Positions 23,041-38,895 are shown, counted from the first letter of the stretch. The stretch is DNA of 62,437 nucleotides from Chthoniobacteraceae bacterium (GCA_031409335.1 JANNWY010000205.1:1-62437); one strand, 5' to 3'. Notes: generated from the sequence alone by a model not told the origin. Program-made: numbers and translations.

Positions 23041-24297
23041 CTACCGCTGATAGATCGGCAAAAAGTGGTTCTTCACCGCAAGGCTCAACACAGCCATCGC
23101 CGTCGCATACACCTTTCCACCGCCACGCTCCTCCCCGCCTTTTCCCTCCCAGGATCCATCGCGACTTTGCATCGGCAACAACACATCCGCCACCACCTTG
23201 CGCCCTTCCTCCGCGTGCTTTCCGCCGCGCTGATACATCCCCTGCGCATAGTAGTAAGTAAGATAGAATAACCACTTCTCATTCTCCGTCAGCCCACTCT
23301 TCAAGAGTCGATCGCTCGCCGAGCGCACTTCCTCGGATTCGTATTCCCCGCAAACTTGCAGCGCCAGCAACCCTTCGGCGGTCGTCGATAGTTCGCGCCC
23401 TTTCCCCTGATAGCCAAAGCCTCCCAGCTTCACGTCGCCGCCACGCTTGTCGGCGTCGGGCTCATAGCAGCGTTTGATGTATTTCACGGCATCCTCGATC
23501 GCACCCTTCGGCACATCCAGCCCCGCATTCTTCGCCGCGCGCAACGCCATCGTCTGCCACACCGTCACCGACATATCCGACTCACTCGTATCCGGCGTGT
23601 AGCGCCAGCCACCGCGATTCGACTCATTCTTCGGGATCTTTTGCGCACGCAAAATCAAGTCCAGCGCCTTGCGACACTTCTCGCGGATCAATTCATCCTG
23701 CTGCGCATCCACACCCATCCCGAGCATTTCCGCCAGCATCAGCGTCGTGATCCCATGCCCGTACATGCGCGACCCATCCTTTTGCCCGAGATACCCATCC
23801 TTTTCCTGAATCTCCGGCCCGGTGACATAGGCCAGTGCCTTCTTCATCGCCTGCCCTTCCGGCGTGGGATCGCCGGCTTGATGACCAACCGAAGCTAACG
23901 CCAATATTGCCAGCGAAGTCATCGCCGTCTCATTGCGCATCTTATTGGAAATCGCCCCCGCTTCATCCTGCTGCTGGAGCAAATACTGAGTCGCGCGAAG
24001 CAACGCCTCATCCACCCGATCCGCCGCATGGATCGGCACGACGTTTAGGAGAAACGCAAGACCGACGACTCCGGGTAGCACGCTCGTCCCGAGCGTTGGT
24101 TTCGGCGTCCCGCCGAAACGAACTTTTTGAACCGTCGTTGCGAGATAGGACACGCAAGCACGGGCGACACGTTTGGAAAGTCCGCAAAGGCGGGACGCCT
24201 TTGCCAACGGTCGAGACGACCGTGCTACCCGGAACACACGAGCCGCGCGCTCTCTCCAATCCGCAATCCGCAATCCGCAATCCGCAATCGTCCTCAT
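23041..24297 (-). CDS. Prenyltransferase/squalene-oxidase-repeat (alpha-alpha toroid) protein with a repeat-derived N-terminal extension
   Basis: MYGHGI.TL.LAE, GGWRY.P...SD.SVT.WQ.MALRAA, Y..YY..Q, Q..DGSW, LPIYQR. ATG 24297 overlaps the upstream stop; the true start is uncertain. Confidence 0.85.
   Translation of the reverse strand: MRTIADCGLRIADWRERAARVFRVARSSRPLAKASRLCGLSKRVARACVSYLATTVQKVRFGGTPKPTLGTSVLPGVVGLAFLLNVVPIHAADRVDEALLRATQYLLQQQDEAGAISNKMRNETAMTSLAILALASVGHQAGDPTPEGQAMKKALAYVTGPEIQEKDGYLGQKDGSRMYGHGITTLMLAEMLGMGVDAQQDELIREKCRKALDLILRAQKIPKNESNRGGWRYTPDTSESDMSVTVWQTMALRAAKNAGLDVPKGAIEDAVKYIKRCYEPDADKRGGDVKLGGFGYQGKGRELSTTAEGLLALQVCGEYESEEVRSASDRLLKSGLTENEKWLFYLTYYYAQGMYQRGGKHAEEGRKVVADVLLPMQSRDGSWEGKGGEERGGGKVYATAMAVLSLAVKNHFLPIYQR
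24070..24233. repeat. REP-like palindromic doublet, family B, inside the 5' part of the prenyltransferase-repeat ORF
   Basis: TCCGGGTAGCACG ... CGTGCTACCCGGA terminal inverted repeat, with internal hairpins TTTCGGCGTCCCGCCGAAA and CAAAGGCGGGACGCCTTTG. Confidence 0.85.
24257..24290. repeat. Heptamer tandem repeat (CAATCCG)x4 plus a partial unit
   Basis: Read directly; encodes IADCGLRIAD on the minus strand just after the ATG. Confidence 0.95.
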
Positions 24298-27200
24298 GGC
24301 TTCTTCGCCTTCTCCGCGATCACACGGTAATAGGTTTCGATCTGACTCCGATACTCACCCGCCACCGCCTCGCGCTGACCCTGAGTCAGCTCCTGCGCCA
24401 CCTGCTTTGGCAGTTTGCCCCAATCGCCAATCTTCCCGTTCTTAGCCTCGCCCGGCGTTTGGTAAGGCTTGCCGGCACCCTGCGCGAGGGTGCCACCTTC
24501 CGAGCGATCGAGTAGTTCACTTTTGCCATCCTCGCTGGGCTGCTGCGAAGGTTTTTCCGAGCGCGCGGACTTCATCGCATTCGCCGCCGCCTGCGCCGCC
24601 GCAGCCATCGCGGCCTGAGCCTGCGACATCGCTTGCGCAGCAGCATCCTGCGCCTGCCCCGGCTTGCCCTGCTGTCCGGGCTGTCCCGGTTGCGGTTTGC
24701 CTGGTTGGTTCGACGGCTGCCCGTTCTGTGCAGTCTGCGGCTGCCCGTTCGCGCTGGCTTCCGCGGGGGGAGTTTGCGCATTCAAAGCCGCATCCAGCAT
24801 GTCCAGCGCGCGTGCCATCCAGACTTGCTCCTGCGGTGAAGTCGGCGGAGCGCCCGGCGTCCCCGGCGCGGGCGGGCTCTGACCCGGCTGGCTTCCGGGC
24901 GAAGGCGGCGCGCCTGCTTGCAACGCCGCTGGCAACTGAGTCGCCGGCGATTGACCACTCGGCGGCTGCTGACCCGGCGAGGATTTCCCCTGCTGCGGTT
25001 GCCCCGATGGTTCGCCGGTCGGCGAAGACTGCGGAGCCATCGCTGCCTGCAATTGCCCCAAATCTTTCGCCAATTCCTGGCTCGCCGCATTCACCGGAGC
25101 CTGCGCCTGCTTCGCCTGCTGCGCCTGTGCCAGAGCCTGTTGCGCGGCGGGCACCTCCTGCGCGGCAGTCTGCTGGATTTGCTCGCCGAGCTGTTGAAGC
25201 CGCTCGCCAGTCATCGTATTTTGCAACCGCTCTTCATGCCGTCCCGCGCGCGAAACTTCCTCGCCCGCCTGCGCCGCATTCTGCGCGATCGGCTGCTGCT
25301 GTTGCGCGGCCTGCGCGAGTTGCGGATTCGCCTGCTGGCCGGTCGGCGCGGGCTGCGACTGCGGGTTCGCAATCGCCGCTACTTGTTGCAATGCAGCCTG
25401 CGCGGCCTTCGCCGCTTCCGCCGCCTGCTGCGCCGCCTGCGCCGTCGCCGCCGCGTCTTTGGAAGCCTGCTGGCTGTTCGCCTGTTCCTGACCGGATCGC
25501 TGCGCCGCGGCTTGCTGCGCCGTTTCCTGCGCCTGCTTCGCAGCGGGCACCGCCGCTTGTGCATTTTGTGAAGCCTCGCCCGCCTTCTGCGCGGCCTGCT
25601 GTGCGGACTGCGCCGCTTGTTGGGCTGCCTGCGGATTCTGAATCTGCTGCGCCATTTTCTCCATGCTCTGCGCGGCCTGTTGCGCATTCTGCACCGCTTT
25701 CGCCGCCTCAGCTTGTGCGGTCTGGCTCTGATTCGCCGCCGCCGGATCGTTCGCTGTTTTCGCCGACTGCACCGCCCTGTCCGCCTGCTGCCGCGCTTGG
25801 TCAGACGCGGTCACGGCCTTTCTCACTGCCTCACGCGCGTTGTCCGTCGCCTTCTGTAAATTCTCCGCCAAAGACTTCGCGTTCTGCGATTGCGCCTGCG
25901 CCATTGCCGCGAGTTGCTGCGCCGCCGCTTCCGCAGCCTTGGCCGCCTGCGCCGCATCCTGCGCCGCTTTCACCGCTTCTCCCGCTTCCTTGGAAGTCTG
26001 CTGATTGTTCGCCTGCTGTTCGCCCGATTGCTGCGCCGCGGTTTGTTGCGCCGTTTCCTTCGCCTGCTGCGCTGCGGGCGTCGCGGCCTCCGCATTTTTG
26101 GAAGCCTCGCCCGCCTTTGCCGCAGCCTGTTGCGCACTCTGCGCCGTCTGTTCCATCGCCTTCGGGTTTTGACTTTGCTGCGCTGCCTGGTCGGCCGCAT
26201 TCGCCGCCTGCTGCGCATTCTCCTTCGCCTGCTGCGCCTCCGCGCGGGCCGTCCGTGCTTGATCCGCAGCCGGCTGGTTCCCCGCCTTCTTTGCCTGCTG
26301 CACGGCTTCATCGGCCTGCTCTCGCGCTTTCTCCGCCGCAGCCACGGCCTGCTTCGCCGTCTCCTGCGCATTCTTCGCGGCCGCTTGTATGTTTGTCGCG
26401 TTCGCCATTTCGGGCTGCGCTGCGAGTTGCTCCAGCTTCTTCGCCACCTGCTGTTCCGTCTGCGATGCCTTCGCGAGCTTTTGTTCCGCTTCCGCCAGCG
26501 TGTCCTGCGCGATCTGGCTGAGTTCCTTCCGCATTTCGGGATTCGTCGGCAGCGCCTGTTCGAGCTGCTTCAACATGTCCTCCGGCGATTTCCGCGCCAT
26601 CTCCGCGAGCTGTTCCACTTTCGCAAATTGCGCGTCGAGCTGCTCCTTCACGCCATTCTCCTGCTCGGTCGCGCGCAGCGCAGTGCGCGTCTCCTCCGCC
26701 TTCCCCTGCTCCACGTTTTCAAAATGTTGCGCGATCTGCTTCAGCGAATCCTCCAGCTTCTGCTGCTGCACCGTCGCCTCGTGCATCGACTGTTCGCGCA
26801 GCTCCGGCTGCTCCGCTTTCACCGCATCCTGCAATGCCTTCTCCGCCCGCGGCGGCGGCTCCTTCAGCATCGCCAGCGCATCATCCGCATCGCGCGCCTG
26901 CTCGCGTCCGTCTTTGTCGAGAACGTCCTGCTTGTTCGCCTCGGCGCGAATCAGATCCTTCAACGCATCCACTTTTTCATTGAGCTGTTGTTGTTGCGCG
27001 ATCTTCTCCTGCGTCGCCGCGGTTGCTTCATCCGGCTTCTGCTCCGCCGCTTTCTGCGCTTGCTCCTGCGTTTCCTTTTTGAGTTCCGCCGTCTCCTTCG
27101 CCAGTTGCTCCGCGACATCGCTGATCTTCGGAATCATTTCCTGCAAAGCCTGCCGCGCCTCATCCATCGGCTTCCGCAAAAGATCGAGCGCCGCCTTCAC

Positions 27201-37828: not shown

Positions 37829-37836
37829 CTTCTCAG

Positions 37837-38895
37837 TCATAAAACCCGCCCCGCTTCCCCGCGCGGCACGACTTCCAGAATCCGCGCGATGATGTCGTCC
37901 ACCTTCACGCCTTCCGCTTCGGCGTTGAAAGTCGGCACCACGCGATGCCGCATCACGGGCGGCGCGAGGGCGACGATGTCGTCGATGGTAACGTGGAATC
38001 GTCCGTGCAAAACGGCACGGACTTTTCCGGCAAGCACGAGATTTTGGCAGGCGCGCGGGCCGGCTCCCCATTCGATGAGTTCTTTCACGAATGCCGGTGA
38101 ATCGGCGTTGTCCGGGCGCGTGTAGCGGACGAGATCGAGCACGAAATCCATGACGTGATCGGGCACCGGGACTTTGCGGACGACTTTCTGAAGTTCGAGA
38201 ATTTGCGGGCCTTCAATAACGGGCTGGATGTCGGCGGAGAAAGTGCCGGTGGTGCGGGCGATAATTTGCCGCTCTTCGTCGCGGCTTGGATAATCGACTT
38301 TCACCAAAAAGATGAACCGATCGCGCTGCGCCTCGGGCAGCGGATAGGTGCCCTCCTGCTCGATCGGATTTTGCGTTGCGAGGACGAAGAACGGTTTGTC
38401 GAGATGCAGCGTGTGGCCGCCGACCGTGACCGAGCGTTCCTGCATCGCTTCGAGCAAAGCGGCCTGCGTTTTCGGCGGCGTGCGGTTGATCTCATCCGCG
38501 AGCAGCATTTGCGTGAAGATCGGGCCTTTCTGGAAAACGAAACGCCGGTGGCCGGTCGTCGGGTCTTCCTGAATGATGTCGGTGCCGGTGATGTCCGCCG
38601 GCATGAGATCGGGCGTGAACTGGATGCGCCGGAAGTTCAGCTTCATCGTCTCGGACAGCGTGCGAATCATCGCGGTCTTCGCGAGGCCGGGCACGCCTTC
38701 GAGCAGGCAATGACCGCCCGCGAGCACGGCAATGACGAGTTGCTCGATCACGGCGTCCTGCCCGACGATGAACTTGGCCATTTCGTCGGAGATTTTTCGG
38801 TAGGCGCTAACGAGCAGCGCGGCGGACGCCTGATCGTCGTTCAGTCCTGCTCCGGCAGGCGGAGAGGCGGATTTTTCCGTGGTGGTGGTAGGCAT
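37837..38895 (-). CDS. MoxR-family AAA+ ATPase
   Basis: [59 protein letters not shown]. Confidence 0.95.

What the first reader, a model, noticed from the sequence alone, without database searches (positions are those of the whole stretch)
24070..37840. Heptamer-repeat elements at every internal junction of the MoxR/vWA operon: candidate undescribed element family
Seen: four cassettes (30882-31016, 33822-33960, 36209-36715, 37687-37828) share one design of GC cap, tandem heptamers, loop, inverted heptamers, cap. A fifth heptamer tract is at 24257-24290. They fall at all five core-gene junctions (moxR/DUF58, DUF58/batA, batA/vWA, vWA/coiled-coil, coiled-coil/prenyltransferase) and I saw none elsewhere in the 62 kb. 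Unit number differs between arms and copies. One copy encloses a gene and three are empty. Inference: this resembles a cargo-bearing element with non-autonomous derivatives that accumulates at coupled gene junctions, or a set of long mRNA hairpins that segment a 16-kb transcript. I know of no described mechanism, and no transposase or reverse transcriptase for it is in the window.
Basis: partly seen in the sequence, partly recalled or inferred. Interest (0 to 1): 0.88.

Follow-up and report, generated by a model that had tools for sequence, protein, structure and literature searches.

The report
Heptamer-armed hairpin cassettes in operon junctions
The MoxR operon's gene junctions are filled by copies of a genome-wide family of hairpins built from 7-base repeats, one of which encloses a conserved small gene otherwise known from ribosomal-RNA intervening sequences; they are likely carried and translated as part of the operon's messenger RNA, and how they spread is unknown.

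Summary
Four cassettes of the design cap, tandem heptamers, loop, inverted heptamers, cap lie at 30882-31016, 33822-33960, 36209-36715 and 37687-37828, and a solo heptamer tract lies at 24257-24289. They are not special to this operon. The genome holds about 310 heptamer-array clusters and 62 short hairpins.

The enclosed gene is a PF05635/TIGR02436 four-helix-bundle gene, the "23S rRNA intervening-sequence protein". Relatives of this protein subfamily carry inverted period-7 arms in 69 of 79 loci, from four or more phylum- or class-level groups, with SAACNYY-type units.

Orthologous operons show filled and empty sites. A same-genus relative has clean GTGA/ATGA overlaps where this genome has the gene cassette and a hairpin. 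Eleven other species keep the gene cassette at the same DUF58/BatA junction under purifying selection (dN/dS 0.05-0.24).

Array-bearing junctions are enriched for a relic ATGA (35/114 against 194/2179). Each cassette here is spanned by an ORF that runs from the upstream stop to, or near, the next start.

I read them as IVS-type fold-back cassettes with gene-less copies living in coupled junctions. RNase III cutting and the mobility agent are inferred, not shown. This scan has noted the same design on other DNA many times. I found no paper that links it to operons.

The parts
37687..37828 (-). Gene-less hairpin cassette at the moxR/DUF58 junction: cap, about 5.9 CAACNYY units, loop, about 5.4 inverted units, cap.
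   Evidence: RNA fold -76 kcal/mol, z -8.1.
37661..37840 (-). Bridging ORF of 59 codons. Its ATG overlaps the moxR TGA (ATGA). Its TAA lies 20 nt before the DUF58 GTG at 37640.
   Evidence: The DUF58 start was fixed by orthologues.
36209..36715 (-). Gene-bearing cassette at the DUF58/BatA junction: cap 36701-36715, 5.4 GAACATC units 36660-36700, four-helix-bundle gene, 2.4 inverted units 36225-36241, cap 36209-36223.
36145..36747 (-). 200-aa ORF with a PF05635/TIGR02436 domain at residues 42-148. Its GTG overlaps the DUF58 stop (GTGA) and its TGA overlaps the BatA ATG (ATGA). It reads through both arms.
   Evidence: Pfam 34.0 bits (cut-off 33.8). TIGR02436 68 bits (cut-off 24). PDB 2rld E = 2.6e-10. 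Frame.
33822..33960 (-). Gene-less hairpin cassette at the BatA/990-aa-gene junction.
   Evidence: Fold -95.1 kcal/mol, z -12.3. Absent from the same-genus orthologue G003 and from G006.
33798..33989 (-). Bridging ORF of 62-63 codons. It runs from GTGATGA at the BatA stop to the TGA that overlaps the ATG (33801) of the 990-aa gene.
30882..31016 (-). Gene-less hairpin cassette after the 990-aa gene.
   Evidence: Fold -74.8 kcal/mol, z -9.2.
30845..31042 (-). Bridging ORF of 65 codons. Its ATG overlaps the stop of the 990-aa gene (ATGA). Its TAG lies 10 nt before the MntA ATG at 30834.
24257..24289 (-). Solo (GATTGCG)4.7 array directly after the ATGA junction of the 1996-aa gene and the prenyltransferase-like gene. 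It belongs to the AATCCGC family, which has 45 arrays, most of them inside coding sequence.
23041..38964 (-). Host operon: moxR 37837-38964, DUF58 36744-37640, BatA/vWA 33986-36148, 990-aa gene 31039-33801, MntA 30544-30834, HepT 30203-30547, 1996-aa gene 24294-30206, prenyltransferase-like gene 23041-24297.

Best explanation
The four cassettes are copies of one genome-wide family of fold-back elements (GC cap, tandem SAACNYY heptamers, loop, inverted heptamers, cap) lodged in the stop/start junctions of the MoxR operon. Their gene-bearing form carries a four-helix-bundle gene of the 23S-rRNA-intervening-sequence type. They are likely co-transcribed with the operon and read through by ribosomes, and their long stems would be RNase III targets.

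Shown:
- The design, its genome-wide spread, and the tie to PF05635 genes.
- The tie to former ATGA overlaps, and filled against empty orthologous sites.
- Purifying selection on the enclosed gene.
- An ORF across every cassette that starts on the upstream stop and ends on or near the next start.

Inferred:
- After terminating at the upstream gene, ribosomes restart at the retained ATG/GTG. They melt and translate the stop-free heptamer arms, which is the only route to the enclosed protein here. They then terminate at the next start, so translational coupling survives the insertion.
- Untranslated transcripts fold into 35-55 bp duplexes that RNase III would cut, as it does in rRNA IVS.
- Arms change length by slippage, and cassettes can be lost precisely.
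- The agent that makes new copies is unknown. The conserved pairing of this protein subfamily with SAACNYY arms makes the four-helix-bundle protein the likeliest partner of the arms.
For: Family:
- 320 arrays of at least 24 nt; the AACATCG unit accounts for 106.
- 69 inverted same-unit pairs, with loop lengths centred near 27 nt.
- 219 GAACATC-type arms, about 80 of them capped. The caps are specific to arrays: 22/24 and 22/28 occurrences lie next to arrays.
- Lineage-specific: 242 pattern hits here, 30, 12, 11 and 0 in the four same-genus genomes, 3 and 7 in two other genera, and 0 in the other 34 genomes. The reversed-pattern control gave 0.

Gene link:
- PF05635/TIGR02436 assignment.
- 7 of 8 copies here have repeat-built inverted flanks.
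- 22 of 29 in relatives exceed the 99th percentile of 300 random controls.
- 69 of 79 loci of this protein subfamily have inverted arms, all with period 7 and SAACNYY-type units.
- 58 of 69 lie between co-directional ORFs, with the left arm a median of about 10 nt after the upstream stop.

Junction link:
- ATGA stop context, odds ratio 4.5, p = 2e-10.
- Of 21 junctions with [AG]TGA on the left and an NTGA start on the right, 14 keep the bridging frame, against 7 expected; binomial p = 0.0018.
- All four window cassettes are bridged.
- The enclosed gene's frame starts on the DUF58 stop in G000, G015 and G007.

Turnover:
- G003 (93-95% amino-acid identity) and G006 have clean GTGA/ATGA overlaps where G000 and G007 are filled.
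- In 9 further orthologous operons, moxR/DUF58 holds a gene-less heptamer hairpin in 7, a gene cassette in 1 and nothing in 1.
- Two hairpins lie in frame inside coding sequence (117 and 87 extra nt) and are absent from same-genus genomes.

Gene function: 11 of 80 loci keep the cassette at the same DUF58/BatA site. dN/dS was 0.05-0.24 in the 7 of 10 pairs where dS could be computed.

Precedent: the Coxiella IVS has a 28-bp stem, an S23p ORF, variable tandem heptamers and RNase III excision (PMC4990558, passages read). An RNase III gene is present in this genome.
Against: - No RNA data exist, so co-transcription, ribosome passage and RNase III cleavage are all untested.
- Hairpins are as open to translation on the reverse strand as on the forward strand (1.70 against 1.81 open frames of 3, n = 43). 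Openness is therefore a property of the units and not proof of selection for translation.
- The -1 frame passes the arrays in 30/52 [AG]TGA junctions, against 24/52 and 23/52 for the other two frames, a weak difference.
- Only 9 of 67 subfamily loci have the first in-frame start exactly on the upstream stop.
- Loops of the gene-less copies share nothing detectable with the cassette interior, so descent by internal deletion is not shown.
- No target-site duplication is seen at the two coding-sequence insertions. At junctions, the ATGA...ATGA pair could be kept by selection alone.
- About half of the array clusters (157/310) overlap coding sequence by my crude gene caller, so junctions are a favoured home, not the only one.
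- Gene calls come from a self-trained ORF scorer and its start sites are rough.
Confidence: 0.6

Rival explanations
1. Purpose-built intercistronic regulators. The hairpins were selected in this operon to cut or stabilise parts of the long transcript (RNase III sites or 3'-end protectors like REP/BIME) and so set the ratio of MoxR, DUF58, BatA and the later proteins.
For: The stems are very stable. A hairpin or cassette occupies moxR/DUF58 in 8 of 9 further orthologous operons, with different unit sequences; this could mean that structure and not sequence is kept. An RNase III gene is present.
Against: The same elements lie at unrelated junctions, in divergent promoter regions and in frame inside genes. 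A same-genus relative does without two of them. BatA/990-aa-gene is empty in 4 of the 6 orthologues that could be read.
Confidence: 0.2
2. Ordinary heptamer microsatellites that arose in place by polymerase slippage and happen to pair, with no copying between sites.
For: Unit number varies between arms and copies. Heptamer SSRs are known to be over-represented in some bacteria (PMC4692102, passages read). Solo arrays such as AATCCGC have no caps.
Against: Composite copies share non-repeat parts: caps, the inner GAAGTCGGA motif, and a conserved core of about 75 nt in nine inside-out copies. Whole hairpins of about 115 nt are present or absent between close relatives.
Confidence: 0.07
3. REP- or MITE-like elements moved by a Y1 (RAYT / IS200-IS605) transposase encoded elsewhere in the genome.
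For: 14 Y1_Tnp matches in the genome. Hairpin-ended elements without target duplication fit that chemistry, and none was seen at the two coding-sequence insertions.
Against: 0 of 9 Y1 loci have an array within 2.5 kb. Their own flanking palindromes occur only 3-4 times and never beside arrays.
Confidence: 0.05
4. The four-helix-bundle gene is the Avd accessory gene of a diversity-generating retroelement, and the repeats are template or variable repeat debris.
For: Avd and PF05635 proteins are related. PMC10053308 is listed as naming PF05635 (search listing only).
Against: The genome's two reverse transcriptases lie on contigs C32 and C149, and none lies on a contig with a PF05635 gene. The gene's neighbours are operon genes on both sides.
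Confidence: 0.03

Closest known systems
ORF-bearing intervening sequences (IVS) of 23S rRNA, e.g. Coxiella burnetii helix 45 (PMC4990558; passages read)
   Same: Both have a small ORF of the S23p / PF05635 four-helix-bundle family in the loop of a stem made by terminal inverted repeats. Both have tandem heptameric repeats of variable number in the 5' part. Both are about 430-500 nt long. Both are carried inside a host transcript.
   Different: These cassettes sit between protein-coding genes of an operon, not in an rRNA helix. The arms are much longer arrays, plus GC caps. The ORF is under purifying selection and is reachable by translational coupling, whereas in Coxiella it is decaying and probably untranslated. 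Here there are many gene-less copies. RNase III excision is shown for the IVS but not here.
Heptamer simple-sequence-repeat families: Xanthomonas GGGAATC and Nostoc GGGGAYT (PMC4692102, passages read); cyanobacterial STRR (recalled: Mazel et al. 1990)
   Same: Both are genome-wide tandem 7-nt units, mostly intergenic and between co-oriented genes, lying close to the upstream ORF. Xanthomonas has 70-75 convergent inverted pairs. Length varies between close relatives.
   Different: Those repeats were read as G-quadruplex formers. The passages I read made no link to PF05635 genes, caps, stop/start overlaps or bridging ORFs. The units here are A-rich, not G-rich.
MIRU, mycobacterial interspersed repetitive units (Supply et al. 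1997, as summarised in PMC3184786; passages read)
   Same: Both are short repeats inserted in intergenic regions of operons and transcribed in the polycistron. Both contain ORFs whose ends overlap the neighbouring genes. Both show filled and empty sites, and MIRU has a flanking tetranucleotide repeat.
   Different: MIRUs are 40-100 bp direct-repeat minisatellites of Mycobacterium. They are not heptamer fold-backs, and no gene-bearing form is known.
REP/BIME elements with RAYT transposases (recalled knowledge)
   Same: Both are abundant intergenic palindromes inside operons that can alter mRNA fate.
   Different: No link to Y1 transposase genes was found here. The arms are tandem heptamers, and the gene-bearing form encodes a four-helix-bundle protein, not a transposase.
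Foldback (FB) transposons of Drosophila (recalled knowledge)
   Same: Both have long inverted arms built of short tandem repeats whose number differs between arms and copies. Most copies are empty and a few carry cargo.
   Different: FB elements are eukaryotic and far larger, and have their own transposase in the complete form. There is no homology.

Membership tests
S23p-bearing 23S rRNA intervening sequence | ORF of the PF05635 / TIGR02436 family | tested here: met
   Pfam 34.0 bits against a cut-off of 33.8. TIGR02436 68 bits against a cut-off of 24. PDB 2rld E = 2.6e-10.
S23p-bearing 23S rRNA intervening sequence | Terminal inverted repeats that close a stem around the ORF | tested here: met
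   Closing stem of about 32 bp in the minimum-free-energy and centroid folds.
S23p-bearing 23S rRNA intervening sequence | Tandem heptameric repeats of variable number next to the ORF (as in Coxiella) | tested here: met
   5.4 and 2.4 units. The paper's passage was read.
S23p-bearing 23S rRNA intervening sequence | Lies inside a 23S rRNA helix (25 or 45) | tested here: not met
   It lies between DUF58 and BatA. Rfam found no rRNA in 23000-40500.
S23p-bearing 23S rRNA intervening sequence | Excised from the transcript by RNase III | not testable with these tools
   No RNA run was listed. An RNase III gene is present.
Heptamer SSR families (Xanthomonas GGGAATC, STRR) | Dispersed tandem 7-nt units, mostly intergenic, with convergent inverted pairs | tested here: met
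   320-436 arrays and 69 inverted pairs. 153 of 310 clusters are mostly intergenic, against 9.5% intergenic DNA.
Heptamer SSR families (Xanthomonas GGGAATC, STRR) | G-rich unit able to form G-quadruplexes | tested here: not met
   The units are GAACATC, CAACGTT and GATTGCG.
MIRU | ORF within the repeat whose ends overlap both neighbouring genes of the operon | tested here: met
   Two of the four window cassettes run from stop overlap to start overlap; the other two end 10 and 20 nt before the next start. Genome-wide, 14 of 21 are in frame.
MIRU | Tetranucleotide direct repeat flanking filled sites | tested here: inconclusive
   [AG]TGA on the left and ATGA on the right at two junctions compared with empty sites. 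Selection for stop and start would give the same pattern. No repeat is seen at two coding-sequence insertions.
MIRU | 40-100 bp direct-repeat unit of Mycobacterium | tested here: not met
   These are heptamer fold-backs in a Verrucomicrobiota-type genome.
REP/RAYT | Repeats flank or cluster with a Y1 transposase gene | tested here: not met
   0 of 9 Y1_Tnp loci have arrays within 2.5 kb.
MITE of a transposase-bearing IS | Full-length parent with a transposase, and target-site duplication | tested here: not met
   The gene-bearing form encodes only the four-helix-bundle protein. No duplication is seen at two coding-sequence sites.
DGR accessory gene (Avd) | Adjacent reverse transcriptase and a template/variable repeat pair | tested here: not met
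   The two RVT_1 genes lie on other contigs.

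The most novel reading that the evidence does not exclude
The 23S-rRNA-IVS-type four-helix-bundle protein is the trans-acting partner of a transposase-less class of fold-back element that homes to stop/start overlaps of operons. 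On this reading, ribosomal-RNA intervening sequences and the unexplained heptamer repeat families of bacteria (STRR, Xanthomonas GGGAATC, the roughly 100 GAACATC hairpins here) are its gene-bearing and gene-less forms.
Probability: 0.3. Interest if true: 0.85.

Novelty: new variant of a known kind. Interest (0 to 1): 0.62.

Why it matters
PF05635/TIGR02436 is a very large family with no known function, and the origin of rRNA intervening sequences and of bacterial heptamer repeats is an old loose end. This genome brings the three together.

- It has a conserved, selected four-helix-bundle gene held in heptamer arms at one operon junction in at least 12 species.
- It has dozens of gene-less copies of the same arms at other junctions and in frame inside genes.
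- It has clean empty sites in close relatives.

That gives concrete handles for experiment: cognate protein-and-arm pairs, defined filled and empty sites, and a coupling-preserving ORF.

It also matters for annotation. ORF callers run gene starts through the stop-free arms. Examples are the 990-aa gene called from 34011 instead of 33801, and a 1920-aa UvrA-UvrA fusion call.

Tried and rejected
- RAYT/IS200 link: rejected.
- DGR/retroelement link: rejected.
- Rfam on 23000-40500: only three sub-threshold plant or animal miRNA-precursor matches on the hairpins (38.7, 25.9 and 23.9 bits against gathering scores of 80-100). I read these as generic hairpin look-alikes.
- RNA evidence: no RNA holder was listed for 30100-38900.
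- Laying Logan DNA contigs of four runs: the contigs break at the arms, and the 'joints' are other copies of the family, so nothing can be said on population alleles.
- Strand test for translation: forward and reverse open-frame counts do not differ.
- Descent of empty copies from the gene cassette: blastn of the cassette against 62 hairpins gave 324 hits, none reaching into the non-repeat interior.
- Target-site duplication: none seen at two coding-sequence insertions.
- Literature searches that found no description of operon-borne PF05635 cassettes or Verrucomicrobia heptamer hairpins. Subscription journals are not covered.
- One search failed on a term-length slip and was re-sent.
- Structure prediction, complex prediction, the protein atlas and the large protein searches were not used.

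Full report
**What is there**

The genes of 23041-38964 lie on the minus strand:
- moxR (AAA_3), 37837-38964
- DUF58, 36744-37640
- BatA/vWA, 33986-36148
- a 990-aa gene, 31039-33801
- a MntA/HepT type VII toxin-antitoxin pair, 30203-30834
- a 1996-aa gene, 24294-30206
- a prenyltransferase-like gene, 23041-24297

On the transcribed strand the three gene-less cassettes fold at -74.8, -95.1 and -76.0 kcal/mol, with z-scores of -9.2, -12.3 and -8.1. The 507-nt cassette closes with a stem of about 32 bp.

**The enclosed gene**

The gene in the large cassette matches PF05635 (23S_rRNA_IVP; 34.0 bits, cut-off 33.8) and TIGR02436 'four helix bundle protein' (68 bits, cut-off 24). It also matches PDB entry 2rld at E = 2.6e-10.

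**Not confined to this operon**

The assembly is 7.94 Mb in 326 contigs with 62% G+C.
- It holds 320 period-7 arrays of at least 24 nt. The commonest units are AACATCG (106), AATCCGC (45) and AATGACC (16).
- With a 21-nt floor there are 436 arrays and 69 neighbouring inverted pairs of the same unit, with loop lengths centred near 27 nt.
- A regex finds 219 GAACATC-type arms. About 80 of them carry a cap, and many carry the inner motif GAAGTCGGA.
- The caps occur almost only beside arrays: 22/24 and 22/28.
- This 13.8-kb stretch is one of five in the genome with 5 clusters, where 0.54 is expected. It is a hot spot, but not a unique one.
- The triple-unit pattern gives 242 hits here. The four same-genus genomes give 30, 12, 11 and 0, two other genera of the family give 3 and 7, and the other 34 genomes searched give none. 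The reversed control gave 0 everywhere.

**Link to four-helix-bundle genes**

- The genome has 8 PF05635 matches, 7 of them over the cut-off. Seven of the eight are flanked by inverted repeats built of short tandem units, each with its own unit: GAGCAGT, GGAAGCG, a 6-mer GTCCTC, and others. One sits between the moxR and DUF58 genes of a second MoxR operon on C229.
- In 24 relatives plus the own genome, 19 of 25 genomes have such genes. Of the 29 loci I could assess, 22 have flank complementarity above the 99th percentile of 300 random controls, and 19 exceed the control maximum.
- One scan of the species-representative genome collection with the window's protein returned 80 loci. By their titles they come from Verrucomicrobiota, Kiritimatiellia, Lentisphaerae and Planctomycetota records, at 58-79% identity.
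- 69 of the 79 assessable loci have inverted arms, all with best period 7 and SAACNYY-type units.
[quoted passage not shown] The left arm starts a median of about 10 nt after the upstream stop.
- This pairing of a protein subfamily with a unit type, held across very deep divergence, is the main reason to think that protein and arms work together.

**Link to coupled junctions**

I used a self-trained ORF scorer (5832 genes, 90% coding; starts are rough).
- 153 of 310 array clusters are mostly intergenic, against 9.5% intergenic DNA. Of these, 103 lie in tandem junctions, 28 in divergent, 8 in convergent and 14 at contig ends. The other 157 overlap called coding sequence.
- The upstream stop reads ATGA in 35 of 114 array-bearing tandem junctions. 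The figure is 194 of 2179 for array-free junctions with a spacer over 20 nt (odds ratio 4.5, p = 2e-10), and 53% for overlapping junctions.
- In the window, an ORF starts on the upstream stop at every cassette and runs through both arms:
  - ATG 37840 to TAA 37661, 20 nt before the DUF58 GTG.
  - GTG 36747 to TGA 36145. This is the 200-aa four-helix-bundle ORF, which ends in the BatA ATGA.
  - GTG 33989 / ATG 33986 to TGA 33798, which ends in the ATGA of the next gene.
  - ATG 31042 to TAG 30845, 10 nt before the MntA ATG.
- Genome-wide, 21 junctions have [AG]TGA on the left and an NTGA start on the right. Of these, 14 keep the frame needed for such a bridge, where 7 are expected (p = 0.0018).

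Against a simple selection story:
- Hairpins are as open on the reverse strand as on the forward strand.
- The -1 frame passes the arrays only slightly more often than the other two frames (30, 24 and 23 of 52).
- Only 9 of 67 subfamily loci start exactly on the upstream stop.

**Filled and empty sites**

Orthologous operons were found in G003 (same genus, 91-95% amino-acid identity), G007 (60-81%) and G006 (46-84% over the long alignments).
- At DUF58/BatA, G003 reads GGGCGTGACGTTC and G006 reads GGGGATGAACTTC. These are plain 4-nt overlaps. G000 and G007 have the gene cassette between a left [AG]TGA and a right ATGA.
- At BatA/990-aa-gene, G003 and G006 again have ATGA overlaps. G000 and G007 have a gene-less hairpin between two ATGAs.
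- G015 carries the gene cassette at DUF58/BatA, with the same cap and GAACATC arms (82% protein identity over the 50 residues before the contig ends). It carries a second, unrelated four-helix-bundle cassette with TGAATTY arms at moxR/DUF58.
- Among the 80 loci, 11 hold the cassette at the orthologous DUF58/BatA junction. One more sits after the DUF58 of a different MoxR operon.
- Against these 11, dN/dS is 0.05-0.24 in the 7 of 10 pairs where dS could be computed. dS exceeds 1 in all of those and is too saturated to estimate in the other three.
- The gene cassette is therefore an old, selected resident of this junction, and G003 most simply lost it cleanly.
- At moxR/DUF58, nine further orthologous operons hold a gene-less heptamer hairpin in 7, a gene cassette in 1 and nothing in 1. 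Units and caps differ between species. At BatA/990-aa-gene, 2 of the 6 readable operons are filled.

**Copies inside genes**

A 5760-nt ORF on C52 is two UvrA genes joined without a stop through a (GAACATC)8 array. It also has an in-frame AATCCGC array in the first UvrA. Relatives keep this arrangement.

Two hairpins deep in coding sequence, C195:97302-97416 and C180:4299-4414, are absent from same-genus G003 and G004. The differences are 117 and 87 nt, both multiples of three. There is no flanking duplication, and a few codons are replaced.

The units GAACATC and GATGTTC have no stop codon in any frame, as direct reading shows. The elements therefore enter, or arise in, many places and survive where the reading frame and the stop/start signals are kept.

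**What moves them**

This is not known.
- Y1 transposase genes exist (14 matches), but none of 9 loci has arrays within 2.5 kb. Their own flanking palindromes are rare.
- The two reverse transcriptases are on other contigs.
- The loops of gene-less copies show no similarity to the cassette interior. 'Non-autonomous derivative' is thus an inference from shared caps and arms, not a shown descent.

**Known relatives of the idea**

- The Coxiella 23S rRNA IVS is a 428-nt element with a 28-bp terminal stem and an S23p ORF of this family. It has tandem heptameric repeats of strain-variable number and is excised by RNase III (PMC4990558, passages read).
- Heptamer SSRs with 70-75 convergent inverted pairs, mostly between co-oriented genes and close to the upstream ORF, are described for Xanthomonas and Nostoc, without a link to this gene family in the passages I read (PMC4692102).
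- MIRUs are operon-junction repeats with ORFs that overlap both neighbours and with tetranucleotide flanking repeats (PMC3184786, passages read).
- My searches found no paper describing PF05635 cassettes in operons or heptamer hairpins in Verrucomicrobia.
- This scan's own earlier notes describe the same design on other genomes many times. I re-tested their core claims here and did not rely on them.

**Verdict**

- The family is genome-wide.
- The gene cassette here is ancient.
- Descent of the empty copies, RNase III cutting and the mobility agent remain untested.

Noticed in passing
window 30203-30834 (-): A MntA/HepT (type VII) toxin-antitoxin pair lies between the hairpin at 30882-31016 and the 1996-aa gene. 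It has ATGA overlaps MntA/HepT and HepT/next gene. It is absent from the orthologous junction in G006 and G007.
   Followed up: partly
G000:C52:13892-19651: A single 1920-aa ORF holds two complete UvrA-like genes joined through a (GAACATC)8 array with no stop codon. A Shine-Dalgarno sequence and an ATG follow the array. There is also an in-frame AATCCGC array in the first UvrA. Relatives G002 and G007 align across the junction.
   Followed up: partly
G000: C11:14790-14920, C42:29701-29853, C91:18294-18440 and 22305-22437, C93:18624-18730, C187:1483-1603, C222:955-1083, C261:26425-26571, C288:7808-7923: These are 'inside-out' copies: inverted arm, cap, a spacer between the caps, cap, arm. In eight of the nine the spacer is a conserved core of about 75 nt (GGTGGAA...CCACC type); C93 has only a few bases between its caps. 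At least five sit between divergently transcribed genes, next to both start codons. Their role is unexplained.
   Followed up: partly
G000:C229:22861-23181: A second MoxR operon carries a four-helix-bundle gene between moxR and DUF58. Its arms are built from a 6-nt unit (GTCCTC), not a heptamer.
   Followed up: no
G000:C40:5673-5966 and C180:7510-7846: Inverted AATCCGC arrays bracket a segment of about 220-270 nt in frame inside two large paralogous proteins. They encode IADCGLR / IRNPQSA repeats on either side of it.
   Followed up: no
L013 (G003:C845) 640-850: Upstream of DUF58 the same-genus relative has no moxR. It has a 21-nt (3 x 7) tandem repeat that encodes EETIRSD-like heptapeptides, and an alcohol-dehydrogenase-like gene on the other strand.
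   Followed up: no
L014 (G007:C74) 266-1857: G007 has a 1.6-kb insertion, with ORFs on both strands, between moxR and DUF58, where G000 has a hairpin.
   Followed up: no
G000:C83:95998-96333 and C229:38185-38520: Two RAYT-like Y1 transposase genes are each flanked by their own GC-rich palindromes (types GCGCCCCTGCCGGGGCGC and CCGGTGGCGTAAGCCACCGG). These occur only 3-4 times in the genome.
   Followed up: partly
window 31039-34011 and 36744-37712: Mechanical ORF listing extends the starts of the 990-aa and DUF58 genes through the stop-free hairpin arms, to 34011 and 37712. Orthologues place the starts at 33801 and 37640.
   Followed up: yes
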